DNA of 64,000 nt from a virus (taxonomy: Duplodnaviria > Caudoviricetes): the IMG/VR virus record IMGVR_UViG_3300036762_000188. One strand, given 5' to 3'. The notes below the pieces were generated by a model that worked only from the letters and a program-made list of their open reading frames with translations, did not search any database and was not told the DNA's origin. Shown here piece by piece: positions 50,119-61,464 of this stretch. Both the position numbers and the translations under genes were made by a program. Every line of letters starts with the position of its first letter. The first letter of the stretch is position 1.

Positions 50119-50473
50119 CTTTACTAGCTTTGTCTTGGCCATTTAATCCTCTCACTACTAATGCACCGTTCTCTCTATGTAGAGTAGGTTGGGTGCCTCT
50201 GGTCTGAATAATGTATTCTGCCATCATACGTTCATGTCTATCGTCAGTTACTGCTTGGTACAGGGACTGAGCCATGTGCTTGCGATGCATAGACGCTGTA
50301 AGTTCTGCATTACCCAGGGAAGCTGCAGCCTCGACCATTAATCTACGACTATCCGTAAGCTTACTCTTAACTAACCAGCCTCTCAGGGTACGATCTTTTA
50401 TAGAGCCTAGCGCGCCTGGATCAACTCCAGATGCGTATAGTTCTACCCGCATGCATGCCCATGGCTCTTTTAA
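50108..50473 (-). CDS. -1 frameshift extension of the tail assembly chaperone (GT-type)
   Basis: The -1 frame is open from the slippery site: LKEPWACMRVELY... Confidence 0.75.
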   Translation of the reverse strand, partial: LKEPWACMRVELYASGVDPGALGSIKDRTLRGWLVKSKLTDSRRLMVEAAASLGNAELTASMHRKHMAQSLYQAVTDDRHERMMAEYIIQTRGTQPTLHRENGALVVRGLNGQDKASKDDT

Positions 50474-50976
50474 AAATTTTCAGAGCCATATGTTACGGCT
50501 TCGCGCACCTTGTTATCAAACTCTATGAGCTTCTCTACCAACTTCTCAGTTACAGGAGACGGTATTTCATTACGTATAAACTCATATATCTCATCTGGCT
50601 TCTTATCGGCGAAATTCTTAGAGCAGTACGAGATCATTGAATGTGCTAATGTCATAGTAGATACTACAGACGTATACGCGCTTATACTCTTAAATTCCTG
50701 TCGATCAACTGCACGTGCTATGTTAACATCGGCACCTGTAGTACGAGTACGGAATACGACTGAGTTAGTCTTACCTATACGCACCGTCTCTTCATAATAT
50801 CCTTGGAACATAAGAGCGTCATATATAGCTAACGCTGCAGTATCCACTTTAGCGTCTACTTTAGCGTCTACTTTAGCGTCTACTTTAGCGTCTACTTTAG
50901 CGTCTACCTCAGTAGTCTCTGCCTCGGAACCTAGAGAAGGTTCAGTGAAGTCAAATGTAAAATCATCTTTGTTCAT
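50470..50976 (-). CDS. tail assembly chaperone (G-type)
   Basis: Acidic 168-aa protein ending in A AAT TTT TAA, upstream of hub and tape measure. Confidence 0.75.
   Translation of the reverse strand: MNKDDFTFDFTEPSLGSEAETTEVDAKVDAKVDAKVDAKVDAKVDTAALAIYDALMFQGYYEETVRIGKTNSVVFRTRTTGADVNIARAVDRQEFKSISAYTSVVSTMTLAHSMISYCSKNFADKKPDEIYEFIRNEIPSPVTEKLVEKLIEFDNKVREAVTYGSENF
50846..50905 (-). repeat. five perfect 12-bp tandem repeats encoding VDAK
   Basis: ACTTTAGCGTCT x5 on the plus strand. Confidence 0.95.
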
Positions 50977-51007: not shown

Positions 51008-52618
51008 TTACTCTACGAACGTGTAGTCGCCGGTTAGATACTGATATCCTAAGTTGGCAAATACAACGCTATGGAACCAATCGTCTGGTATATTAGGGTC
51101 TTTTATGTATAGGCGTCTACCTGTCCTAGTCTCCTCCTCGTAGATAGCTAGCGCATCATTCCAAAGCCCTTCTGTTAGATTCCAGTTCGGAGTAGCGAAT
51201 CTGTGAACACCTAACCTCATCTTCATCATAACGTTATCCATGGCCTGTGTACGATCTGCTGCCAGGAAATTACCATTACTATTCCAGTACAATCTGGTAT
51301 TAGAGGTTACGTATTGACACATGATGACCTTATCTCTACCTAGCTTATTGGCCATTAGTTCTGCCTGTAGTACGCCTACTCCGCGGTCAGAAGCTACTAT
51401 ACTAACATTCCACTTCCTGGCTATCTCACACACTCTATCGACTTGATCTAGTATCTTACCCTCTGATAGCTTAGTAGCCTCTAATAGTATCATTCCTCCG
51501 GTAGAATCAATACCTATAACAGACACTACCGTCATGGAGGACTGTGATCCAGATACCGACCAGTCTACTCCTAATACTACGTTGGTTATAGACTTAGCCC
51601 TGCTTAGCATCTCTCCTGATAGATTGGACCCGTCTGGGCTAGGCCATTCAGTCCAATCAGGTACGCAACATCCCTGAGCCTCTCCTAGAGATAACGATGA
51701 TGCCCCTAGGTCCGTGGCTAGTCCGAATATCTCATTGGCTATTAATGTAGGTGTATACATTACACCTTTTCTAGATAAGTCTACTTTAGCGTATAACCTC
51801 TCCCATTTACCAGGCTTGCAGTTTGCCCCGAATATAAGCTGTGGCAGGTGCAGGCCTTGTCTCTTAACTCCGGGTTTGGTTGAAACCCACTGCCCACCGT
51901 TAAATGAGAATGGGCTATGGCAGTAAGGACATACTAGAGTCTTAGGGTTAACACACATCTCCATGCACAAATCGTATTCATTAGGTATGACCCATTTACT
52001 ACACTTATCGCACTTCTTAACGAACTCCATCTGATTAGTAGTCAGCCATAGCTGCTCTAAGGTGTTCGCAGTAGACTTACTAGTCCCGGTGAATATCTGG
52101 TATCCGTAATCTGAAGTGTTAAGAACCTCGGCTATGACGGGTATGATATCTATTGATACATCCTGCACCTCGTCTATACATAATAGATCCGCAGTGATAC
52201 CACGCACCCTATCGGCGTCCGCACCTGTCTGCGCGTATGACAGGATGACTTCTGACTTATTATTGTAGCTCTTATGGAATACGTTACCTACGTCTTTACT
52301 ATTAACAAAGAACTTCTTGATGAACTTAGAATCGCGGAATATATCTAGGTACCCTACAGAAAAGCGTTTAGTCTGAGTCTGGGACGGAGATATGTATAGG
52401 CTGGTAAACCAAGGCTGAGAGATAGATCCTATATTTATACGTCCGCCTAATCCTAGAGATTTACCTACCTGTCTAGCAGCCTTAACCACTAGCACCTCTG
52501 GGTACATGTCATATATAAGACGTTGAGGATCATAGTCAGGTTCAAATCTTACTCTGGAACCTTTGAAGTCCAGGATCGCCTGTGCGTACTTAGACCCTGT
52601 AGCTTTTATAGTGGGCAT
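51008..52618 (-). CDS. terL: terminase large subunit
   Basis: ARQVGKS Walker A, RVRG, CIDEVQD Walker B, GT, CxxC pairs, GVDW nuclease motif, PDDWFHS. Confidence 0.9.
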   Translation of the reverse strand: MPTIKATGSKYAQAILDFKGSRVRFEPDYDPQRLIYDMYPEVLVVKAARQVGKSLGLGGRINIGSISQPWFTSLYISPSQTQTKRFSVGYLDIFRDSKFIKKFFVNSKDVGNVFHKSYNNKSEVILSYAQTGADADRVRGITADLLCIDEVQDVSIDIIPVIAEVLNTSDYGYQIFTGTSKSTANTLEQLWLTTNQMEFVKKCDKCSKWVIPNEYDLCMEMCVNPKTLVCPYCHSPFSFNGGQWVSTKPGVKRQGLHLPQLIFGANCKPGKWERLYAKVDLSRKGVMYTPTLIANEIFGLATDLGASSLSLGEAQGCCVPDWTEWPSPDGSNLSGEMLSRAKSITNVVLGVDWSVSGSQSSMTVVSVIGIDSTGGMILLEATKLSEGKILDQVDRVCEIARKWNVSIVASDRGVGVLQAELMANKLGRDKVIMCQYVTSNTRLYWNSNGNFLAADRTQAMDNVMMKMRLGVHRFATPNWNLTEGLWNDALAIYEEETRTGRRLYIKDPNIPDDWFHSVVFANLGYQYLTGDYTFVE

Positions 52619-53723: not shown

Positions 53724-53793
53724 CAATGTGGTATTGACATGGCTACCTCTGCGTATTAACATTGCAGGTAGTTTTTTACATTAGGAGAAGTTG

Positions 53794-55599
53794 ATGACTG
53801 AGTACTTAGGTATTAATATCGATTACAGTAGAGATCGAATTATACCGGAACAGGGATTGTTAATGTTGACCACTAAGGGTTTCTATAAAACTGAGTGGGA
53901 GGGTTCTCCTCAAGAATCTTTTGCTAGAGCATCTACTTGCTACTGTTTCGGCGACTATGAATTAGCTAAGCGTATATATGACGCAGTGTCTAGTAAATGG
54001 TTTACATTCGCCAGTCCAGTGCTGAGCACCGCTATTGAGATAGAGTGGCCGCGGGACTTGAGAGATTTCGAAGCTTATGGAGATTGGCTAGAGGATAACA
54101 TAGACACTCCATCAGGCCTGCCTATAAGTTGTTTCTTAAATAGTATTGAGGACACTAAGGAGAGTCTAGTAGACACGCGTACGGAGGCTAACCTGCTGAG
54201 TATGAGTGGCGGCGGTATCGGTGTATACTTTGGTAACCGCTCCCCAGATGAGAAATCTACAGGTGTAATGGCGCACTTAGCTGGATGGGACGCCGACTGC
54301 CTATCATATAAACAGACCAGCTCACGCCGCGGTAGTATAGCAGCGTATTTAGATATCACTCACCCTGAAATCATTAAGTTCATACGTACCCGTAATCCTA
54401 TCGGCGGTAAGAACTTTAACATAAATACAGGTGTTAACATTACCGATAAGTTTATGAAAGCCGTTATAAATGGCGATGACTATGAGCTTATCGATCCTAA
54501 GCATGGACCTACGGGGATATTCCTATCAGCACGAGAAGTGTGGGAAGATTTAATGGATCAGCGCTTTGAGACCGGCGAACCGTACCTATGTTTCATTGAT
54601 ACTATCAATCGTAGCCGTCCGCCACAGATAACTAAGGCCCTGTATAATGTCCGCCAGAGTAACCTATGTTCAGAGATTACTCTTATGACGTCTAATAAGC
54701 GTACGGCTGTGTGCTGCCTATCGTCTCTAAACTTGGATAAGTACGATGAGTGGAAGGATACTACGCTAGTAGCAGACTTGGTAAGATTCTTAGATAACGT
54801 GCTAGAGTACTTCATTAGACTGGCCCCTCCGGGTTTAAGCAAGGCAGTATACTCCGCCCGTAAAGAGCGCGCTATAGGCCTCGGTACTTTAGGGTTCCAT
54901 AGCTATCTACAGCGTAAAGGCGTACCATTCGAGTCCGGTGGTCTAGGAAGCGCTTCACAGATAAACTTTAACATATACCGTAATATCAAGGCCCAGGCAG
55001 TAGAGTCTAGTAAGGTACTGGCTAGTGAACGAGGAGAGCCTGATGACTGTGTAGGAAGCGGCATGCGTAATAGTCATTTACTGGCTATAGCTCCTAACGC
55101 CAGCAGCTCATCCCTTGTCAACGTCAGTCCTTCTATCGAACCGTGGGCCGCTAACGCGTTCTCTGCCGAAGGTCGTGCCGGTGCATTCTTGATAAAGAAC
55201 CCGCACTTAGTAACGGCTTTAGAGGAGTTAAATCTTAATACTGCGGATATGTGGGCTCGCATAGTTAAGGCAGAGGGTTCTATTCAGGGTATAGAGGAGA
55301 TTCCCGAGAGCGTACGTAGAGTATTTAAGACTAGCTTCGAGATAGACCAGATGTGGATCATAGAACACGCTGCTATCCGGGCTCCTGAAGTATGCCAGAG
55401 TCAGTCGGTGAATACCTTCTTGCTGCCCGGCAGTACTGCTCAGATGGCTAGTGATATCTGTATTGCCGCCTGGGCTAAAGGCGTCAAGTCTTTATATTAC
55501 TGCCGTTCAGATGCACCGGTCAGCGCCAGTGTATCACGATCGGATACCGTACGGTCTAGTAAACCCTCCGAGCCAGCGTGCTTATCTTGTGAAGGATGA
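53794..55599 (+). CDS. nrdA: ribonucleotide reductase class I alpha subunit
   Basis: ASPVL, PISCF, GGGIG, QSNLCSEI, CCLSSLN, APNASSS, SQS, KSLYYCR, C-terminal CLSCEG; no ATP cone seen. Confidence 0.96.
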   Translation: MTEYLGINIDYSRDRIIPEQGLLMLTTKGFYKTEWEGSPQESFARASTCYCFGDYELAKRIYDAVSSKWFTFASPVLSTAIEIEWPRDLRDFEAYGDWLEDNIDTPSGLPISCFLNSIEDTKESLVDTRTEANLLSMSGGGIGVYFGNRSPDEKSTGVMAHLAGWDADCLSYKQTSSRRGSIAAYLDITHPEIIKFIRTRNPIGGKNFNINTGVNITDKFMKAVINGDDYELIDPKHGPTGIFLSAREVWEDLMDQRFETGEPYLCFIDTINRSRPPQITKALYNVRQSNLCSEITLMTSNKRTAVCCLSSLNLDKYDEWKDTTLVADLVRFLDNVLEYFIRLAPPGLSKAVYSARKERAIGLGTLGFHSYLQRKGVPFESGGLGSASQINFNIYRNIKAQAVESSKVLASERGEPDDCVGSGMRNSHLLAIAPNASSSSLVNVSPSIEPWAANAFSAEGRAGAFLIKNPHLVTALEELNLNTADMWARIVKAEGSIQGIEEIPESVRRVFKTSFEIDQMWIIEHAAIRAPEVCQSQSVNTFLLPGSTAQMASDICIAAWAKGVKSLYYCRSDAPVSASVSRSDTVRSSKPSEPACLSCEG

Positions 55600-55859
55600 A
55601 TGTAATGAATAGTAATGAAGCGATAATCCAGGCCCTTGATTCGGTACGTAGACTATACGCTAAGGAGATAGATGATATTGACAGTAAGATACGTACGGCT
55701 GCTGGTATGGGGAAGTTCTATGTGTCCATAGATCTAACTGATTACCGTAGTGATATCACTCCTATGAAGGACGCCTTAGTTAACTTGTATAGATATAAAT
55801 CTTTCACCGTGAAGTTACCTTTACCTGGTAGCGTGATTAACCTGGAGTGGCCTTTATGA
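55596..55859 (+). CDS. hypothetical protein between nrdA and nrdB
   Basis: ATGA overlaps at both ends. Confidence 0.65.
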   Translation: MNVMNSNEAIIQALDSVRRLYAKEIDDIDSKIRTAAGMGKFYVSIDLTDYRSDITPMKDALVNLYRYKSFTVKLPLPGSVINLEWPL

Positions 55860-56854
55860 TTATCTTTGAGCCTACACGTACGTACCACCCGTTTAAGGCG
55901 GCGTGGGCCATGGAGCTGGCAGAAGAACACTCTATCAGTCTATACTGGGATAAGCATCAGCTTGAGTTTACGGATGACATCCGTCAGTATCACTCTAAGG
56001 ATGGCCTTAAGACTGCTAACGTCAGCCATGAGTCTAACAAGAACATGCTGGCTAAAAATCTTAGCGTATTCACCCAGAGTGATGTAGCGGTAGGAGAGTT
56101 GTACTGCCGACTGCTACCTTACGTTAAGAACAATGAGATACGCAATTGGTTCATGGTGGCTGCTGCCCGTGAATCTACGCACCAGAGATGTTACGCTGCT
56201 GCGGTGGAGGAGTTAGGGTTCCCCGAGTCTACATGGGGTGAGTTCATGGAGTATAAAGCCATGAGCGATAAGATCGATCTTATTAGTGCTGCTAGTGAAG
56301 ATCTATCTAAGCCTATAAACTTCGCTAAGACTCTAGCACAACTTCTGTTGGCTGAGGGTATTGCCTTATTCGGAGCCTTCGCTAGTATGCTCAATCTTAA
56401 GCGCTTCGGGCTTATGATGGGTGTTAACAAGATTAACGAATGGTCACTTCGAGATGAAGAGCGTCACGTATACGGTAACATACTCGCGTTGAACGACGTC
56501 AAGTCTTACCTAACCGATGTAGAGTTGGTAGAGTTAAATGAGTTCATAGTAGAGGCAGTTACTCGTTATCGTGCAGCTGAGCATAAGTTCATCGAGCTAG
56601 CATACGAGATGGGTCCTCAGGAAGGTATGACTGAGGGAGACATGAAGGACTACATAGATTACCTATGTGATTTACGATTAGAGCGTCTAGGGCTAGATCC
56701 TATCTACGGCACTAAAGATAACCCTTTAGAGTGGATGGATTGGTTACTAACAGGGCGTAAGCACGTTAACTTCTTTGAGAATCGTGTATCTCAGTATGAT
56801 CACTTAGGATTGATAGGTGGTGTAGAATACGATAAGTACGCATCTTATCTATAA
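55856..56854 (+). CDS. nrdB: ribonucleotide reductase class I beta subunit
   Basis: FTQSD, ESTHQRCY, EGIALF, WSLRDEERH, NFFENRV..Y. Confidence 0.96.
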   Translation: MIIFEPTRTYHPFKAAWAMELAEEHSISLYWDKHQLEFTDDIRQYHSKDGLKTANVSHESNKNMLAKNLSVFTQSDVAVGELYCRLLPYVKNNEIRNWFMVAAARESTHQRCYAAAVEELGFPESTWGEFMEYKAMSDKIDLISAASEDLSKPINFAKTLAQLLLAEGIALFGAFASMLNLKRFGLMMGVNKINEWSLRDEERHVYGNILALNDVKSYLTDVELVELNEFIVEAVTRYRAAEHKFIELAYEMGPQEGMTEGDMKDYIDYLCDLRLERLGLDPIYGTKDNPLEWMDWLLTGRKHVNFFENRVSQYDHLGLIGGVEYDKYASYL

Positions 56855-56887
56855 GGGTACCCCCTCTTACTTAAAAAGAGGGGTTTA

Positions 56888-56897
56888 GTTATAAACA
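56888..56897 (+). promoter_or_regulatory. GTTATAAACA motif variant ahead of the poly-Ubl gene
   Basis: Intergenic, after a CCCCTCTT/AAGAGGGG hairpin. Confidence 0.45.
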
Positions 56898-56942
56898 TAT
56901 TGTAAGGGAACTTACGATCTCCAATATTTAAAGGAACATTAA

Positions 56943-58034
56943 ATGTCTAATACTATCGTTAATATCCCAGGCCGTGAATCACAAACTCTTACTGGTATGG
57001 TCCTGAGCGAGAAGGAAGTTCGCGACGCGTACGCAGGTGTGATCGACCTCGGTTCTTACGTAGCCACTACAACTAAATCTGGAGATGATACTATTATCAC
57101 CTTCGCTAACCGTACTGGCACTAAAGGTGCTGATACTATCGTTAATATCCCTGGTCGTGAGTCTCAGACCCTTACTGGTATGGTCTTGAGCGAGAAAGAC
57201 GTCCGTGACGCGTACGCAGGTGTAATTGACCTAGGCTCTTACGTAGCTACAACTACTACTTCAGGCGGTAACACTGTTATTACCTTCGCTAACCGTACTG
57301 GCACTAAAGGTGCTGATACTATCGTTAATATCCCAGGCCGAGAATCCCAGACTCTTACGGGTATGGTCCTGAGTGAGAAAGACGTCCGCGATGCTTACGC
57401 AGGTGTGATTGACTTAGGCTCTTACGTAGCTACAACTACTACTTCAGGCGGTAACACTGTTATTACCTTCGCTAACCGTACTGGTACTAAGGGTGCCACT
57501 GCAGTGATTATTGATGGTGTCCAGGTCCTGTCTACTCCGGTAGATATGGATGAAGAGGATGTGCTGGATATCCTTGAGTCGGGCGCCTTTGGCGATGTCA
57601 CTGACTACGAGTATACTACTCAGGAAGTAGGTAATACTACCTTCATGACTTTCACCCCAGTTATGGGTGAACTCGAGGCTCTTTTAAATAAGAACAAGCC
57701 TGTAGATTTGAAGGCCCTATTACTGCAAGGGCTAGTTGATAGTGACTCTTCAGACTTAGAGGAAGATGAGGGTGAAGACTATTATTGTTTTGATGAGTTT
57801 GATGAGTTTGATGAAGGCGAGGAGGACGAAGACGAGGTAACCTCTACCGAAGTTATCATCGACGGTATGACGCCTCGTGTTCTACAGGGCATCATAATGG
57901 ATGCTAGTATGCTGATCGCAGCTTACCGTGACACTATTGACTTAAGCCAGTATGTAGCAGAAGAGCGTGTGCAGGGCAGTGTACTTAAGGTATATTTTAC
58001 AAAACGCCAAGGTGCTAAAGGTGCCCTGGCGTAA
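56943..58034 (+). CDS. polyubiquitin-like precursor (PRTRC protein C-type Ubl repeats)
   Basis: Three 61-aa units ending TFANRTGTKG, a divergent fourth unit, an acidic linker, and a fifth unit ending FTKRQGAKG-ALA; adjacent E1/E2/JAB genes. Confidence 0.8.
   Translation: MSNTIVNIPGRESQTLTGMVLSEKEVRDAYAGVIDLGSYVATTTKSGDDTIITFANRTGTKGADTIVNIPGRESQTLTGMVLSEKDVRDAYAGVIDLGSYVATTTTSGGNTVITFANRTGTKGADTIVNIPGRESQTLTGMVLSEKDVRDAYAGVIDLGSYVATTTTSGGNTVITFANRTGTKGATAVIIDGVQVLSTPVDMDEEDVLDILESGAFGDVTDYEYTTQEVGNTTFMTFTPVMGELEALLNKNKPVDLKALLLQGLVDSDSSDLEEDEGEDYYCFDEFDEFDEGEEDEDEVTSTEVIIDGMTPRVLQGIIMDASMLIAAYRDTIDLSQYVAEERVQGSVLKVYFTKRQGAKGALA
56946..57494 (+). repeat. three tandem 183-bp coding repeats
   Basis: Unit boundaries at 57128/57129 and 57311/57312; differences are mostly synonymous. 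Confidence 0.95.
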
Positions 58035-58040
58035 TTAAAT

Positions 58041-58062
58041 AAGGGGCTTCGGCCCCTTTTTT
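58041..58062 (+). terminator. intrinsic terminator after the poly-Ubl gene
   Basis: AAGGGGC-TTCG-GCCCCTT plus T run. Confidence 0.88.
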
Positions 58063-58079: not shown

Positions 58080-58601
58080 ATGGATTTTAGATCTTCTTGC
58101 ATGGCAAGAATACGCACTCTATTAGAAGAGTACGGTTCTACTAACGGATTACACCTACCAATCGGAGCTATAAATAGCACTTTAGGTTATATAGGGCCTT
58201 CAGGAGGCGTCTCTAATAATAATAATAGATTAATTTACTTAATGGTGGGCGCCTTGACAGAACCTGCCAGTTATAACCACTGGCTTTTAAATGGCAGATC
58301 TATACCTATATATCTAGAGCATAACGCTAGTGTATGTATAGGCGTAGTGAGTGGGTATAGAGAACAGTTAATGGAGCAGCTCGAAAGGCTACATGGGGCT
58401 ACTGTATCTATCGTACACATGAGTGATACAGTGTCTACTGTAAGGATTAGATTTCAAGGAGGAACCCTTGAAGGCGTTATGGCTTCTTTAGTGCAGTTAC
58501 GACAGATTATATCTGATATGGTTCTTAGTGGCAGGGCGTATGGATCTACTATACCTAACGTAAGTTATATGCTAGAGGAGGGTTCACATGGAACTTCTTG
58601 A
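58080..58601 (+). CDS. hypothetical protein in the Ubl locus
   Basis: 173-aa ORF coupled to the downstream operon. Confidence 0.6.
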   Translation: MDFRSSCMARIRTLLEEYGSTNGLHLPIGAINSTLGYIGPSGGVSNNNNRLIYLMVGALTEPASYNHWLLNGRSIPIYLEHNASVCIGVVSGYREQLMEQLERLHGATVSIVHMSDTVSTVRIRFQGGTLEGVMASLVQLRQIISDMVLSGRAYGSTIPNVSYMLEEGSHGTS

Positions 58602-58860
58602 GGCTATACTCGCCGTAGAGTCTAATGTAGCCGCGTCCCCTTTAGACGCAGCCGCAGAAGAGCTAATGACATTAGAAGCCAGGGTCCCTGATATCAGCTC
58701 TATAAGTGAGGTACTGCGCGTATTAGAGCGTGGCAATGACCTGCTTAACACTATCAATAGAGGTCCAGATCGTTACTGGCATAGCACATATAATAGTGTG
58801 TTCAACTTACAAAGGATATTATCCGTACCAACTTGTTCAGCAGGAGTGATTTATGTCTAG
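58588..58860 (+). CDS. hypothetical protein in the Ubl locus
   Basis: GAGGAGG RBS; overlaps both neighbours. Confidence 0.65.
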   Translation: MELLEAILAVESNVAASPLDAAAEELMTLEARVPDISSISEVLRVLERGNDLLNTINRGPDRYWHSTYNSVFNLQRILSVPTCSAGVIYV

Positions 58861-59485
58861 TTTAATTATAAGCATGGACCGTAAGGATATCGTAACCGTA
58901 AAGGATGCTACAGGCAGCCACTTGAAAACTATGTCGGTAACGTCATTTATAAACCTGCTTAAAGCCCTTAATCCAGAGGCCGTGGATTCCGTAGGGCGCC
59001 CTATATCCCTTCCTACCAGTATACTTACCATAGCAGGTTCCCCTGCTCTATATAGTATATCTATGTACTTTCCCGAAAAAGAGGCTGTTGTACGGTGTAG
59101 CGGCACTAATTATAACATCGTACTCCCTAATATAGTGCTAGAGATAGACCTGACCGAAGGTCCTGGATGCTGGACTATCACTAGAACTAGATGGATAATG
59201 ACTGACAAGAGCCGGGTTGATTATAAACCTGAGTACGGTAAAGTTCTAGCTATGCCTAACGTGTATAGCGGCGGCAGTATGTGCTACGGCGGTAACGCAC
59301 TACCCGGCAGGATCTACCATGATTGGACTATACTAGATAGCCTGTATCATGATGTATTACTGAAATCTCCATTCAACAATGACCTAGGTGTACCTGGAGT
59401 TGGTGCAAGTGCCGACGACTGGTTAAAAACCCTTAGCGATCGCCGACTTAACGGTGATAAATTCCCATATGAAAGATTCTTCTGA
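58853..59485 (+). CDS. prokaryotic E2-like protein (Prok-E2_D/PRTRC protein B type)
   Basis: LPNIV, MPNVYSGGSMCYGGN with candidate catalytic Cys, SPFNNDL. Confidence 0.8.
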   Translation: MSSLIISMDRKDIVTVKDATGSHLKTMSVTSFINLLKALNPEAVDSVGRPISLPTSILTIAGSPALYSISMYFPEKEAVVRCSGTNYNIVLPNIVLEIDLTEGPGCWTITRTRWIMTDKSRVDYKPEYGKVLAMPNVYSGGSMCYGGNALPGRIYHDWTILDSLYHDVLLKSPFNNDLGVPGVGASADDWLKTLSDRRLNGDKFPYERFF

Positions 59486-59492
59486 GGCTAAT

Positions 59493-60566
59493 ATGTCTAT
59501 TATCATAAACCCTATTACTACCGTGTTACTTAATCATACAGAAGTGGATGACCCTAAGTACAATCACTTCATGTTCAAATATGTGCTGGAGAAGGACCTG
59601 ACGTTAACTAGTACGTCTGTCATGACCGGTGGACGGTTTATCAAGAAGTACATAGCCAACCTGGCCGGTAAGAAACTACCTGCCGACGAGATACAGCCAC
59701 TAGTTAACGGGGTTAAGATCCCTATCCTCATCATGCATCAGATCCATAAGTTCTTCATTGATGTTATGAAATTGCATTCTGGCAGTGAAGCGCAAGCTTT
59801 TGTGGTCATGAGAGACGGTGAGTACAAGATATTAATCCCTGAGCAGACAGTAAGCGGGGCTGCTGTAACCTATGACCTGACTAAGGAATTATTACCGGGC
59901 GATATTATAGTTATGGATATACACTCCCATAACTCTATGGCTGCGTTCTGGTCCGGTACAGATAACCGTGATGATAGTAAGAATACATGGATCTCTGGAG
60001 TATTCGGCAAGGTAAATACTAAGCTGGAGTATAAGTTCCGCTTCAGTGATGCTACAGGGTCTCATTATGATCTTGACATTAAGGACGTCTTTGAAGAGGC
60101 TGCCGAGGTATCGATACCTGCAGAGTGGGTATCTAATGTAAAAAAGTCGGTACTCTCACGAGCGCCTATAAGCAATTACCCCGGGTTATACCGAGGCCCT
60201 TCGAAGCCGAAGAAGTGGAAGCAGAGCCCGGGCTCTTTAGAATGGGTTGGTGGAACAGACTATTCAGAGGATGATCTATCCTTAGATACAATGATCACCT
60301 CTCTAGAAGATGCCTTAGTGGAGGACGAGTTGGTAGATATAATGACAGACATGATCGACCCGTATGCAGGGGATCGCCTAATGGTTAGTAAGGTACTGTC
60401 TAGTCTGGAAAACGCCTTCAGTGGTAACGGTAATATAGACGTATCGTTCCCTATAGGTGCCGAGAACCTATTCCATAAAACTCACACTGTATTATCAGGA
60501 TATGGTACCGATAACAGTACCATACTGACGTCACTAGCTACCGTAAAGGGTATGTACAATGTTTGA
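59493..60566 (+). CDS. JAB/MPN+ metallopeptidase (PRTRC protein A type) with C-terminal extension
   Basis: E...PEQTVS...DIHSHNSMAAFWSGTDNRDD fits ExnHxHx7SxxD; start MSIII after GAGG. Confidence 0.9.
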   Translation: MSIIINPITTVLLNHTEVDDPKYNHFMFKYVLEKDLTLTSTSVMTGGRFIKKYIANLAGKKLPADEIQPLVNGVKIPILIMHQIHKFFIDVMKLHSGSEAQAFVVMRDGEYKILIPEQTVSGAAVTYDLTKELLPGDIIVMDIHSHNSMAAFWSGTDNRDDSKNTWISGVFGKVNTKLEYKFRFSDATGSHYDLDIKDVFEEAAEVSIPAEWVSNVKKSVLSRAPISNYPGLYRGPSKPKKWKQSPGSLEWVGGTDYSEDDLSLDTMITSLEDALVEDELVDIMTDMIDPYAGDRLMVSKVLSSLENAFSGNGNIDVSFPIGAENLFHKTHTVLSGYGTDNSTILTSLATVKGMYNV

Positions 60567-61464
60567 GAGAAAATTTGAAAGCATAATATCTACAGTAGTA
60601 GTTATTGGATGCGGAGGTACTGGCTCTCGAGCCATACCTTTGATGGTGCAGATACTTAAGAATAGCCCTCGGGCGTTAGCGCCTCGCTTAGTACTTATCG
60701 ATGATGACGTAGTGGAGCATAAGAACTTAGCACGTCAGAATTTTATCAACCAGGATGTTGGCAGAAGTAAGGCAGAGGTATTGGCCGAGAGGTATTCTGT
60801 TGCAATGGACTTCCCTATTGTATCCAATAAAGCTCGTATATCTGGTAACAATCTCGTAAATGTAGTAGATCAAGCTATGCATGGAAGAGGTTGGCCTTCT
60901 ATCCGTGGTACACATAGTCCTATATTCATACTATGTGTAGATACCATGGAGGCTCGCATGGATATACTAAAACAGTTGCCGGGTGGATCTATTGTAATAG
61001 AGGCTGGTAACGAGGATACCTTCGGTAACGTCACGGTGTTTGACGTAAGTGAATTCCGAGGTGCTAACGAAGCAACTCCATTCTATGGAACTGTGGAGAT
61101 ACCTGTAATACCAGCCCCGGTAGCACGATACGAACATGCATTAAAAAACCCGTCGGTTAAAACGGGTTCCTGTGCAGATTTAGATCAATCTGCTGCCATC
61201 AACAACTTGATGGCCGCAGGGATAAACACTATACTCCAGAATATATCGTATGGTATACCTCTAAGATATCGTACTAAATTCTATGATCTGGCAGGTAGTG
61301 ATCATACAGAGATAATGAACGTACACTGGTATAATCAGGAGTATAAGTGTGCTGGTATAAAAACTGCGATGCCAATGGCACATACGGCTAGGGCTGATGC
61401 TCTGAATCGAGACTTAGCAGCAGCCCGTAAGATACCTAAAGAACTACTTGCTGCTATAGCCTAG
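60559..61464 (+). CDS. ThiF/E1-like adenylating enzyme
   Basis: VIGCGGTGS, IDDDVVEHKNLARQNF, DVGRSKAEVL, CVD....R, GN, GSCAD...Q...IN. Confidence 0.93.
   Translation: MFERKFESIISTVVVIGCGGTGSRAIPLMVQILKNSPRALAPRLVLIDDDVVEHKNLARQNFINQDVGRSKAEVLAERYSVAMDFPIVSNKARISGNNLVNVVDQAMHGRGWPSIRGTHSPIFILCVDTMEARMDILKQLPGGSIVIEAGNEDTFGNVTVFDVSEFRGANEATPFYGTVEIPVIPAPVARYEHALKNPSVKTGSCADLDQSAAINNLMAAGINTILQNISYGIPLRYRTKFYDLAGSDHTEIMNVHWYNQEYKCAGIKTAMPMAHTARADALNRDLAAARKIPKELLAAIA

What the first reader, a model, noticed from the sequence alone, without database searches (positions are those of the whole stretch)
56943..57494. Polyubiquitin-style precursor under purifying selection
Seen: three head-to-tail 61-aa units joined at G|A with no spacer. 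Units 2 and 3 are identical in protein yet differ at many third positions (e.g. CCT GGT CGT GAG TCT versus CCA GGC CGA GAA TCC). This rules out a fresh duplication or an assembly stutter. Known: eukaryotic polyubiquitin genes show the same pattern. Inference: the JAB peptidase cuts after each KG to release several modifiers per translation.
Basis: partly seen in the sequence, partly recalled or inferred. Interest (0 to 1): 0.85.

Follow-up and report, generated by a model that had tools for sequence, protein, structure and literature searches.

The report
Phage polyubiquitin-like tag precursor gene
A large uncultured phage encodes several copies of a small ubiquitin-like tag fused head to tail, next to genes for tag-activating, tag-conjugating and tag-trimming enzymes. 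The layout mirrors the eukaryotic polyubiquitin gene, but cutting into single tags has not yet been shown.

Summary
Three 183-nt units (61 aa each) lie head to tail at 56952-57494 and are joined at G|A. Units 2 and 3 are 61/61 identical in protein and differ at 16 nucleotides, all synonymous.

The ORF is 56943-58034 (363 aa). It continues with a degenerate unit that has no KG tail, a helix plus acidic linker, a fifth divergent unit ending GAKG, and a 3-residue cap (ALA).

Each unit models as a beta-grasp fold, and relatives match Pfam Prok_Ub. The gene heads a conserved six-gene phage cassette: poly-Ubl, two fast-evolving small proteins, an E2-fold protein with an invariant Cys, a JAB peptidase with a complete JAMM motif, and a ThiF-type E1.

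About 56 relatives carry 1 to 5 units at the same cassette position. Every unit ends G-x-K-G. Proteins stop at that Gly or 1-5 residues after it. In several, unit 1 without its Met equals unit 2. A complex model puts the unit's tail in the JAB active site.

I read this as a polyubiquitin-like precursor (about 0.65). Cleavage, conjugation and targets remain unshown. This scan has noted the same kind of gene on other phage DNA (e1-5680168, e1-5466386). I found no paper describing it.

The parts
56861..56883 (+). Terminator-like hairpin upstream of the poly-Ubl gene, ending the RNR small-subunit gene
   Evidence: Consensus scan; sequence. Function not shown.
56943..58034 (+). Poly-Ubl ORF, 363 aa (P0001): five unit-like segments plus linker and cap
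   Evidence: ORF list. Unit-profile HMM finds 5 domains. Identical protein seen on 4 contigs.
56952..57128 (+). Unit 1 core (aa 4-62), ends NRTGTKG
   Evidence: HMM domain i-E 5.5e-30. Five aa differences from unit 2; dN/dS about 0.06.
57135..57311 (+). Unit 2 core (aa 65-123), preceded by AD, ends NRTGTKG
   Evidence: HMM 3.9e-30. AF2 model pLDDT 88.6 with beta-beta-alpha-beta-beta order. Structural neighbours are MoaD, ThiS, Urm1, ubiquitin and SUMO.
57318..57494 (+). Unit 3 core (aa 126-184), protein-identical to unit 2
   Evidence: 16 synonymous and 0 non-synonymous differences from unit 2. All 9 between-strain changes listed within it are synonymous.
57501..57656 (+). Degenerate unit (aa 187-238); matches profile positions 2-52 only, no G-x-K-G tail
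   Evidence: HMM domain i-E 0.0032. A similar tail-less unit occurs in P0004 at 6.6e-10.
57657..57845 (+). Linker (aa 239-301): predicted amphipathic stretch, then an acidic run (22 D/E in the last 56 aa)
   Evidence: In-frame length variation between strains: 24 nt inserted at 57751 and 15 nt lost at 57803-57821.
57846..58022 (+). Last unit (aa 302-360), divergent, ends KRQGAKG
   Evidence: HMM 2.4e-25. Long branch in the unit tree. Cluster of non-synonymous strain differences at codons 310-318.
58023..58031 (+). C-terminal cap ALA after the last KG
   Evidence: Family caps are 0-5 residues; 28 of 56 proteins end exactly at KG.
58041..58058 (+). Strong terminator-like hairpin directly after the poly-Ubl stop codon; possible attenuator giving more tag mRNA than enzyme mRNA
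   Evidence: Inference only.
58080..58601 (+). 173-aa fast-evolving protein of unknown role, at a conserved cassette position
   Evidence: Orthologues 9-20% identical. No family hits. Atlas search uninformative.
58588..58860 (+). 90-aa fast-evolving protein with an invariant C-terminal YV; overlaps both neighbouring genes
   Evidence: Position conserved in all cassettes.
58853..59485 (+). E2/UBC-fold protein, 210 aa; motif PNVY-x4-MC-x-GG with invariant Cys144
   Evidence: Alignments. hhalign to a Prok-E2_D protein of a related cassette, 87.8%. AF2 model pLDDT 72. Nearly all of the top 32 structural neighbours are E2 or E2-like (UEV) chains, Z 5.8-4.0.
59493..60566 (+). JAB/JAMM metallopeptidase, 357 aa from the conserved Met, with an N-terminal extra domain
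   Evidence: Pfam Prok-JAB 1.2e-05. PRTRC_A 4.5e-16. E99, H144, S145, H146, S154 and D157 invariant in 30 homologues. Docking model.
60559..61464 (+). ThiF-type E1 adenylating enzyme, 301 aa
   Evidence: Pfam ThiF 2.1e-13. PRTRC_ThiF 2.7e-18. Invariant GxGGxG, RQN and CVD; clade-conserved GSCADLDQS.

Best explanation
The gene encodes a polyubiquitin-like precursor of a phage ubiquitin-like (Ubl) conjugation system.

Proposed mechanism:
1. Translation gives one 363-aa chain.
2. The cassette's JAB metallopeptidase cuts after each G-x-K-G and removes the ALA cap.
3. This releases three near-identical 61-aa beta-grasp tags. It also releases one 176-aa tag made of a degenerate unit, an acidic linker and the last unit.
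4. The ThiF-type E1 adenylates the exposed C-terminal Gly.
5. The tag passes to Cys144 of the E2-fold protein and is attached to lysines of target proteins, which are unknown.
6. The two fast-evolving small proteins between the tag gene and the E2 gene are candidate adaptors or targets.

Status of each step:
- Shown: the repeat; purifying selection; the family's unit-copy range, tails and caps; conserved synteny; intact catalytic motifs.
- Modelled: beta-grasp fold, E2 fold, tail-in-active-site docking.
- Inferred: cleavage at every junction, activation, conjugation, targets.
For: Every unit keeps its tail. In 56 aligned units from 17 proteins, G56, K58 and G59 are invariant, and R54, T55 and T57 are at least 90% conserved. 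In this gene the internal tails are the consensus NRTGTKG, while the terminal one has drifted to KRQGAKG. That is the opposite of what is expected if only the last Gly were used.

Unit number varies. A profile search of 1.84 billion representatives finds 57 proteins. Among 56 family proteins I tallied, 16 have 1 unit, 13 have 2, 22 have 3, 2 have 4 and 3 have 5. Of these, 28 end exactly at KG and the rest carry 1-5 residue caps. The residue after an internal KG is A, N, Q, S or T in 73 of 75 cases.

The repeat period equals a whole mature protein. Unit 1 without its Met matches unit 2 in 63/63 (P0027), 64/65 (P0056) and 57/58 (P0062) residues, and has the same length in this gene.

The cassette is the same whatever the unit number. 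Genes with 1, 2, 3, 4 and 5 units all hold the first place of a cassette that also carries an E2 (Prok-E2_D or an E2-sized gene); a JAB and a ThiF E1 are recognised in all but the one-unit L012/L013 copy.

Protein-identical but synonymously diverged units recur in three lineages:
- This window: 0 aa and 16 nt differences.
- L004: 0 aa and 29 nt.
- L006: 0 aa and 16 nt.
Between strains, the 9 changes listed within unit 3 are all synonymous.

Fold and family evidence:
- Unit model pLDDT 88.6. Nearest solved folds are MoaD, ThiS, Urm1, ubiquitin, SUMO and ISG15, at Z 4.9-3.1, with the alignment reaching the C-terminus.
- Nine of 33 relatives hit Pfam Prok_Ub, best E 1.1e-29.

Enzyme evidence:
- The JAMM motif is complete and invariant.
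- The E2 fold and Cys are present.
- The E1 motifs are present.

The JAB(1-225) plus unit complex scores ipSAE 0.63 against a best control of 0.00. In calibration the mark was reached by 58 of 80 solved complexes and 2 of 110 mismatched pairs. Runs agree in at least 96% of contacts, and partner pLDDT is at least 86. Tail residues 52-59 touch JAB 123-130 and E99, H144, H146 and S154-D157.

There is experimental precedent: BilC, a bacterial JAB, cuts G97|A98 of its Ubl and a linear Ubl-GFP fusion (PMC10557695).
Against: - No direct evidence of cleavage, activation or conjugation exists for any family member.
- In the core three-unit clade the units are differentiated by position; last units separate from first and middle units in the tree. 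They are joined by conserved, apparently structured linkers: a GD-x-N...GD-x-x-IN motif, and an amphipathic stretch plus an acidic run. This suggests parts that work together or carry extra functions.
- One unit here, and one in P0004, has lost its tail and could not be released as a tag.
- The fold matches are weak in absolute terms: Z below 5, and Foldseek finds nothing below 1e-3.
- The window protein itself has no Pfam hit.
- The docking pass may partly reflect likeness to solved JAMM-Ubl complexes, and my own alignments were used.
- The E1 catalytic-type Cys is not conserved in the more distant L004 cassette.
Confidence: 0.65

Rival explanations
1. It is an intact multi-domain Ubl, like ISG15, BilA or the three-domain Bub Ubl3. 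The chain is not cut between units. JAB removes only the ALA cap, and only the last Gly is activated and conjugated. The internal units act as binding or oligomerisation modules.
For: [quoted passage not shown] Three-domain forms studied in vitro (Ubl3) form homodimers and filaments as whole proteins (PMC11601603), and operon type 6e has polyUbl proteins (PMC1779556).
- Units are differentiated by position, and the linkers are conserved and structured.
- A tail-less degenerate unit is kept in frame.
Against: - Internal tails are invariant and better kept than the terminal tail here.
- Units join with no spacer, and the repeat period equals the whole Met-less protein.
- One-unit and five-unit genes occupy the same cassette position.
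- The cassette has separate JAB and E1 genes and an E2 with a Cys. It lacks the JAB-E1 fusion, inactive E2 and DUF6527 of Bub/6e systems.
Confidence: 0.22
2. It is a sulfur-carrier array. The units are ThiS/MoaD-like proteins whose C-terminal Gly is adenylated and thiocarboxylated by the E1, to supply sulfur for a phage nucleic-acid or cofactor modification. No protein tagging is involved.
For: - The best structural neighbours include MoaD, ThiS/TtuB and CysO.
- The E1 is of the ThiF/MoeB type.
- JAB peptidases process CysO-type carriers in some bacteria (established knowledge; operon classes in PMC1779556).
Against: - The cassette has no rhodanese, cysteine desulfurase or sulfur-inserting enzyme.
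- An E2-fold protein with an invariant Cys is always present. Sulfur-carrier pathways lack one (PMC10557695).
- The enzymes are closest to PRTRC/6d, a predicted conjugation type.
Confidence: 0.06
3. It is a structural repeat protein, for example a virion decoration or fibre protein made of small beta-rich domains. Its neighbourhood with JAB and E1 is incidental.
For: - Tandem small-domain proteins are common in phage virions (general knowledge).
- In distant relatives the cassette lies next to the terminase gene.
- There is a weak PHROG hit to a GroES-like family, 6e-05.
Against: - Six-gene synteny is conserved across very divergent phages.
- Single-unit forms of 62-67 aa end exactly at the conserved Gly.
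- Relatives hit Prok_Ub.
- The tail docks into JAB in the model.
Confidence: 0.04

Closest known systems
Eukaryotic polyubiquitin genes (e.g. yeast UBI4, human UBB/UBC)
   Same: - Head-to-tail copies of a complete beta-grasp modifier with no spacer.
- Each copy ends in the Gly that would be activated.
- The last copy carries a short cap.
- Copies are identical in protein but differ at synonymous sites.
- Copy number varies between genomes.
- A dedicated peptidase is encoded with E1 and E2.
   Different: - There is no detectable sequence homology to ubiquitin. The relation is fold-level only, Z below 5.
- The tail is G-T-K-G, not R-G-G.
- The putative processing enzyme is a JAMM metallopeptidase encoded in the same operon.
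- Some units have diverged, one has lost its tail, and a long acidic linker is included.
- The host is a bacteriophage.
- Processing is not shown.
Operon type 6d of Iyer, Burroughs and Aravind 2006 (PMC1779556), which I equate with PRTRC cassettes (NCBIfam TIGR03735/03736); its Ubl is Pfam Prok_Ub PF14454
   Same: - Same part list: a small Ubl with a conserved C-terminal Gly, a fast-evolving helical protein, an E2-like protein lacking the HPN His, a JAB with an extra N-terminal domain, and an E1.
- JAB and E1 hit PRTRC_A at 4.5e-16 and PRTRC_ThiF at 2.7e-18.
- Relatives of the unit hit Prok_Ub at up to 1.1e-29.
   Different: - The Ubl described for 6d is a single standalone domain; here 2-5 are fused head to tail.
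- The scores are below NCBIfam cut-offs.
- The conserved His after the E2 Cys described for 6d is not conserved here.
- No ParB-like gene was seen within about 2 kb on either side of the cassette (ORFs; family scans).
- The carrier is a lytic-type large phage rather than a plasmid or ICE.
- A pattern scan of 185,579 prokaryote species genomes found no close relative.
PolyUbl of operon type 6e / Bub Ubl2-Ubl3 and Type II Bil multi-domain Ubls (PMC1779556; PMC11601603)
   Same: Two to three beta-grasp domains in one polypeptide, encoded beside E1, E2 and JAB genes. They were noted as 'reminiscent of poly-ubiquitin'.
   Different: - The studied three-domain forms (Ubl3) assemble as whole proteins into dimers and Ca-dependent filaments.
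- Bub operons use JAB-E1 or E2-E1 fusions and DUF6527.
- As far as I recall, their inner domains do not keep the activating Gly tail; I did not test this here. In the present family every unit does, and the units equal whole mature proteins.
BilABCD (Bacterial ISG15-like) antiphage system
   Same: Four functions are shared: Ubl, E2, JAB and E1. BilC JAB cuts G|A to expose the Ubl's Gly and cuts linear fusions.
   Different: - It is a host defence system, not phage-borne.
- Its Ubl is a two-domain ISG15-like protein.
- No PADLOC model matches the Ubl, E2 or JAB here.
- The gene order and the extra genes differ.

Membership tests
Polyubiquitin-type precursor (architecture, not homology) | Head-to-tail copies of a complete modifier with no or minimal spacer | tested here: met
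   Two-residue AD joins. The period equals the Met-less whole protein in this gene and its relatives.
Polyubiquitin-type precursor (architecture, not homology) | Every copy ends in the conserved Gly tail; the last copy is capped | tested here: met
   G-x-K-G is invariant in 56 units. Four of the five unit-like segments here have it. Cap is ALA; family caps are 0-5 aa.
Polyubiquitin-type precursor (architecture, not homology) | Copies are released by a specific peptidase | not testable with these tools
   Only a model: JAB-unit ipSAE 0.63 versus control 0.00, with the tail at the JAMM residues. Needs biochemistry.
Polyubiquitin-type precursor (architecture, not homology) | Sequence homology to ubiquitin | tested here: not met
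   No Pfam ubiquitin hit. Only fold-level neighbours at Z 3-5. It is an analogue, not a ubiquitin gene.
Prok_Ub (PF14454) / 6d-PRTRC Ubl | Match to the family HMM | tested here: inconclusive
   The window protein has no hit at E <= 0.1. Nine of 33 profile-linked relatives hit, best 1.1e-29. P0046 scores 18.8 bits against a cut-off of 25.
Prok_Ub (PF14454) / 6d-PRTRC Ubl | Small beta-grasp domain with a conserved C-terminal Gly | tested here: met
   Model pLDDT 88.6 with beta-grasp order. Neighbours MoaD, ThiS and ubiquitin. Invariant terminal Gly.
Prok_Ub (PF14454) / 6d-PRTRC Ubl | Operon with JAB (plus N-terminal domain), E1, Cys-bearing E2-like protein and a fast-evolving helical protein | tested here: met
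   description of 6d. NCBIfam scores are below the curated cut-offs.
Prok_Ub (PF14454) / 6d-PRTRC Ubl | Ubl is a single standalone domain | tested here: not met
   Five unit-like segments here. The family has 1-5.
6e / Bub polyUbl (Multi_ubiq type) | Operon with JAB-E1 or E2-E1 fusion, inactive E2/RWD or DUF6527 | tested here: not met
   JAB and E1 are separate genes, and the E2 has an invariant Cys. There is no DUF6527 hit.
BilABCD | Match to Bil models of a defence-system library | tested here: not met
   PADLOC gives no hit for the Ubl, E2 or JAB. The E1 hits only generic CBASS E1-E2 models, 1e-10 and weaker.

The most novel reading that the evidence does not exclude
Large phages carry their own ubiquitin-like tagging system, and its tag is made as a true polyprotein precursor. 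One translation yields several identical small tags plus a distinct large acidic tag. This would be a convergent, virus-borne counterpart of the eukaryotic polyubiquitin gene, used to modify host or virion proteins during infection.
Probability: 0.55. Interest if true: 0.85.

Novelty: new variant of a known kind. Interest (0 to 1): 0.72.

Why it matters
Ubiquitin-like conjugation in bacteria has so far been studied as host equipment, mostly antiphage defence (Bil, Bub, type II CBASS). Here the full kit sits in phage genomes. Its tag gene has independently reached the polyubiquitin design: copy-number variation, caps, protein-identical copies and synonymous scrambling.

If cleavage is confirmed, three things follow:
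- The polyubiquitin gene layout would not be a eukaryotic invention.
- It would offer a compact model of Ubl processing by a JAMM peptidase.
- It would open the question of what a phage tags, whether its own particle or host proteins.

Cultured carriers exist: Vibrio phages D69, D148 and D181 (OZ195729, OZ196545, OZ196140). The question is therefore directly testable.

Tried and rejected
- Foldseek of the unit model against PDB gave nothing at E <= 0.001. The top rows were protein L B1 and a few Ubls.
- Pfam, NCBIfam, PHROGs and PADLOC on the window's poly-Ubl gave only sub-threshold noise: YhcN/YlaJ, a GroES-like PHROG and Pgp6.
- The word-index homologue search for the E2-like protein found only one near-identical relative. 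I collected orthologues from loci instead.
- IMG/VR pattern scan: one locus only, L011.
- GTDB genome pattern scan: no relative. The pattern was narrow, so this excludes only close relatives.
- No whole genome is held for this window.
- The Atlas search of the 173-aa protein gave no hit above chance level.
- PHROGs on ten flanking genes gave only two families of unknown function.
- Sequencing runs: no RNA holder listed, so nothing can be said about expression.
- The Logan contigs break inside the repeat, so no single contig bridges all three units in the runs laid.
- Literature searches for a phage poly-Ubl, PRTRC function or phage-encoded Ubl systems found no paper describing this gene type.
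- 'Fresh duplication' is rejected by synonymous divergence. 'Assembly stutter' is rejected by independent assemblies.
- I considered a prohead-protease polyprotein and rejected it. The cut motif, the fold and the E1/E2 context do not fit.
Full report
**What is there**

The region lies in a phage-type window. A terminase large subunit is at 51008-52618 on the minus strand, and class I ribonucleotide reductase genes are at 53791-56854. The protein is recorded on a contig of about 149 kb.

Tandem Repeats Finder gives a period of 183, 3.0 copies and 88% matches.

A profile built from 56 homologous units finds five domains in the protein:
- aa 4-62, 65-123 and 126-184, each at about 4e-30.
- A weak, tail-less one at 187-238 (i-E 0.0032).
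- A divergent one at 302-360 (2.4e-25).

Between the fourth and fifth domains lies a linker whose last 56 residues hold 22 Asp/Glu. Three residues (ALA) follow the last KG.

**The observation**

Framed at G|A, units 2 and 3 are 61/61 identical in protein. They differ at 16 nucleotides, all synonymous. Unit 1 differs from them at 5 residues, with dN/dS about 0.06. Given that about 26% of sites are synonymous, 16 of 16 synonymous by chance is about 6e-10.

The differences are absent from codons 34-55 of the unit (66 identical nucleotides). The history therefore includes a conversion-like tract.

Independent metagenomes agree:
- A groundwater run holds 56800-57484 with one synonymous change.
- A freshwater strain shows nine changes listed within unit 3, all synonymous.
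- The acidic linker carries in-frame indels.
- The loop at codons 310-318 of the last unit carries seven non-synonymous nucleotide changes, in five codons.

The repeat is real, and each small unit is under strong purifying selection.

**What the unit is**

With the 56-unit alignment, AlphaFold2 gives a confident model: pLDDT 88.6, strand-strand-helix-strand-strand, and a less ordered tail.

Foldseek finds nothing significant. An exhaustive structural alignment returns a list dominated by MoaD, ThiS/TtuB, Urm1, CysO, ubiquitin, SUMO, NEDD8-type and ISG15 domains at Z 4.9-3.1, aligned to the C-terminus. These Z values are weak in absolute terms, as expected for 59 residues. The uniform beta-grasp content of the list is the informative part.

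The window protein has no Pfam hit. However, 9 of 33 relatives reached by the profile hit Pfam Prok_Ub (PF14454), the best at 1.1e-29. I take Prok_Ub to be the Ubl of operon type 6d of Iyer, Burroughs and Aravind, which they describe as a small standalone protein with a conserved C-terminal Gly (PMC1779556). The link between the Pfam family and operon 6d rests on my own knowledge.

**The neighbourhood**

Five genes follow on the same strand:

| Gene | Size | Evidence |
|---|---|---|
| Fast-evolving protein | 173 aa | Orthologues 9-20% identical; no family hits |
| Fast-evolving protein | 90 aa | Orthologues 13-24% identical |
| E2-fold protein | 210 aa | Motif PNVY-x4-MC-x-GG with an invariant Cys; aligns with a Prok-E2_D protein of a related cassette, hhalign 87.8%; model's neighbours are almost all E2 or E2-like (UEV) chains, Z 5.8-4.0, about 120 residues |
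| JAB peptidase | 357 aa | PRTRC_A 4.5e-16; Glu, HxH, Ser and Asp of the JAMM motif invariant in 30 homologues |
| ThiF-type E1 | 301 aa | PRTRC_ThiF 2.7e-18; invariant nucleotide-binding and RQN motifs |

The same order recurs on a 169-kb contig, a 35-kb contig, a 176-kb NCBI contig, a TARA contig and others. It also occurs in cultured Vibrio phages D69, D148 and D181, where every gene is annotated as hypothetical.

Terminator-like hairpins bracket the tag gene at 56861-56883 and 58041-58058. This would fit higher expression of the tag than of the enzymes, but that is inference.

**Comparative evidence on the precursor reading**

All 17 close homologues have 3-5 units of exactly 59-60 residues. 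Each ends R/K-T-G-T-K-G, with G56, K58 and G59 invariant.

An exhaustive profile search of 1.84 billion representative proteins finds 57 proteins. Among the 56 family proteins I tallied:
- Unit numbers are 1 (16 proteins), 2 (13), 3 (22), 4 (2) and 5 (3).
- 28 proteins end exactly at KG; the rest add 1-5 residues.
- The residue after an internal KG is A, N, Q, S or T in 73 of 75 cases.

In many relatives the units abut with no spacer, and the repeat period equals the whole protein. Unit 1 without its initiator Met matches unit 2 in 63/63, 64/65 and 57/58 residues in three proteins.

Genes with one unit (L012, L015), two (L010), three (L001 and others), four (L014) and five (L002, L004) all occupy the first position of a cassette with an E2 or E2-sized gene; a JAB and a ThiF E1 are recognised in all but the one-unit L012/L013 copy.

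Protein-identical but synonymously scrambled units recur independently in L004 (0 aa and 29 nt differences) and L006 (0 and 16).

In this gene the internal tails are the family consensus, while the terminal tail has drifted. That is hard to reconcile with a model in which only the last Gly matters.

**Model of JAB with a unit**

A complex prediction of JAB residues 1-225 with one unit passed:
- ipSAE was 0.63, 0.63 and 0.68, against a best control of 0.00.
- In calibration the mark was reached by 58 of 80 solved complexes and 2 of 110 mismatched pairs.
- Contacts agree at 96% or more between runs, and partner pLDDT is at least 86.
- Tail residues 52-59 pair with JAB 123-130 and touch E99, H144, H146 and S154-D157.

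This supports binding in the expected geometry but does not show it. The pass may owe something to solved JAMM-Ubl complexes, and my own alignments were used.

Experimentally, the bacterial JAB BilC cuts G97|A98 of its Ubl and a linear Ubl-GFP fusion (PMC10557695). A JAB cutting a peptide bond after Gly before Ala is therefore established chemistry.

**What argues for caution**

In the core three-unit clade, units cluster partly by position; last units separate from first and middle ones.

The linkers are conserved in kind: a short GD-x-N...GD-x-x-IN segment after unit 1, and an amphipathic stretch plus acidic run before the last unit. One unit here, and one in P0004, has lost its tail.

So the products would not all be equal. 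This gene would give three small tags and one 176-aa acidic product. Part of the chain may also have a role of its own, or the whole may act intact, as multi-domain Bub and Bil Ubls do (PMC11601603).

The tree also shows lineage-specific amplification or homogenisation:
- The window's units 1-3 group at 100/99 support.
- All three units of P0006 group at 100/100.
This suggests the units can replace one another.

Synonymous divergence need not mean old age. Selection against recombination between DNA repeats would favour scrambled copies.

**Verdict**

The most likely reading (0.65) is a polyubiquitin-like precursor of a phage-borne Ubl conjugation system of the 6d/PRTRC lineage.

Rivals:
- Intact multi-domain Ubl: 0.22.
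- Sulfur carrier: 0.06.
- Structural repeat protein: 0.04.

Targets and biological role are unknown. In several distant relatives the cassette sits next to the terminase gene. I note this as a lead only.

I found no paper describing such a gene. The nearest published statements are the 2006 remark that 6e polyUbls are 'reminiscent of poly-ubiquitin' and the 6d single-Ubl operon.

Notes from this scan report the same kind of gene on other phage DNA. They are AI notes and not independent evidence. My copy-number survey agrees with one of them.

Noticed in passing
window 57234-57299 versus 57417-57482: A 66-nt tract is identical between units 2 and 3, while the rest of the units differ at about one codon in three. 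This suggests a gene-conversion tract or a mosaic origin. Unitig depth doubles there in two metagenomes.
   Followed up: partly
window 57751-57821: The acidic linker of the poly-Ubl varies in length between strains by in-frame indels: 24 nt inserted in one run and 15 nt lost in two. The Ubl units stay constant.
   Followed up: partly
window 57871-57896 (codons 310-318): There is a cluster of non-synonymous strain differences in the first loop of the last unit. In the small units this region faces JAB in the model. It may reflect diversifying selection or relaxed constraint.
   Followed up: no
window 50470-50976 (-): A 168-aa ORF beside the terminase carries five tandem copies of the tetrapeptide VDAK. 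It has a weak PHROG hit of unknown function.
   Followed up: no
L012 4250-5890, L013 891-2531, L015 3630-5228, L016 3151-4749; window 51008-52618: In distant relatives the Ubl cassette starts directly beside, and divergent from, the terminase large-subunit gene. In this window, RNR and a few small genes lie between them. The position at the edge of the packaging module is recurrent.
   Followed up: no
window 61165-61191 (E1 residues about 203-211): A Cys in the motif GSCADLDQS is invariant in the E1 of the close phage clade. It is replaced in the more distant L004 cassette, so an E1 thioester step may not be universal.
   Followed up: no
P0007, P0011, P0004, L003: middle units: The middle unit of several three-unit homologues carries a C-x-E-C pair (e.g. 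DCNEC, ECAEC) that is absent from first and last units and from this window.
   Followed up: no
window 58588-58601 and 58853-58860: The 90-aa ORF overlaps the end of the 173-aa ORF and the start of the E2 gene. It always ends in YV. This suggests translational coupling of the three genes.
   Followed up: no
L004 15973-16861: The five-unit relative lies on a contig whose DNA polymerase III alpha gene carries intein and LAGLIDADG domains.
   Followed up: no
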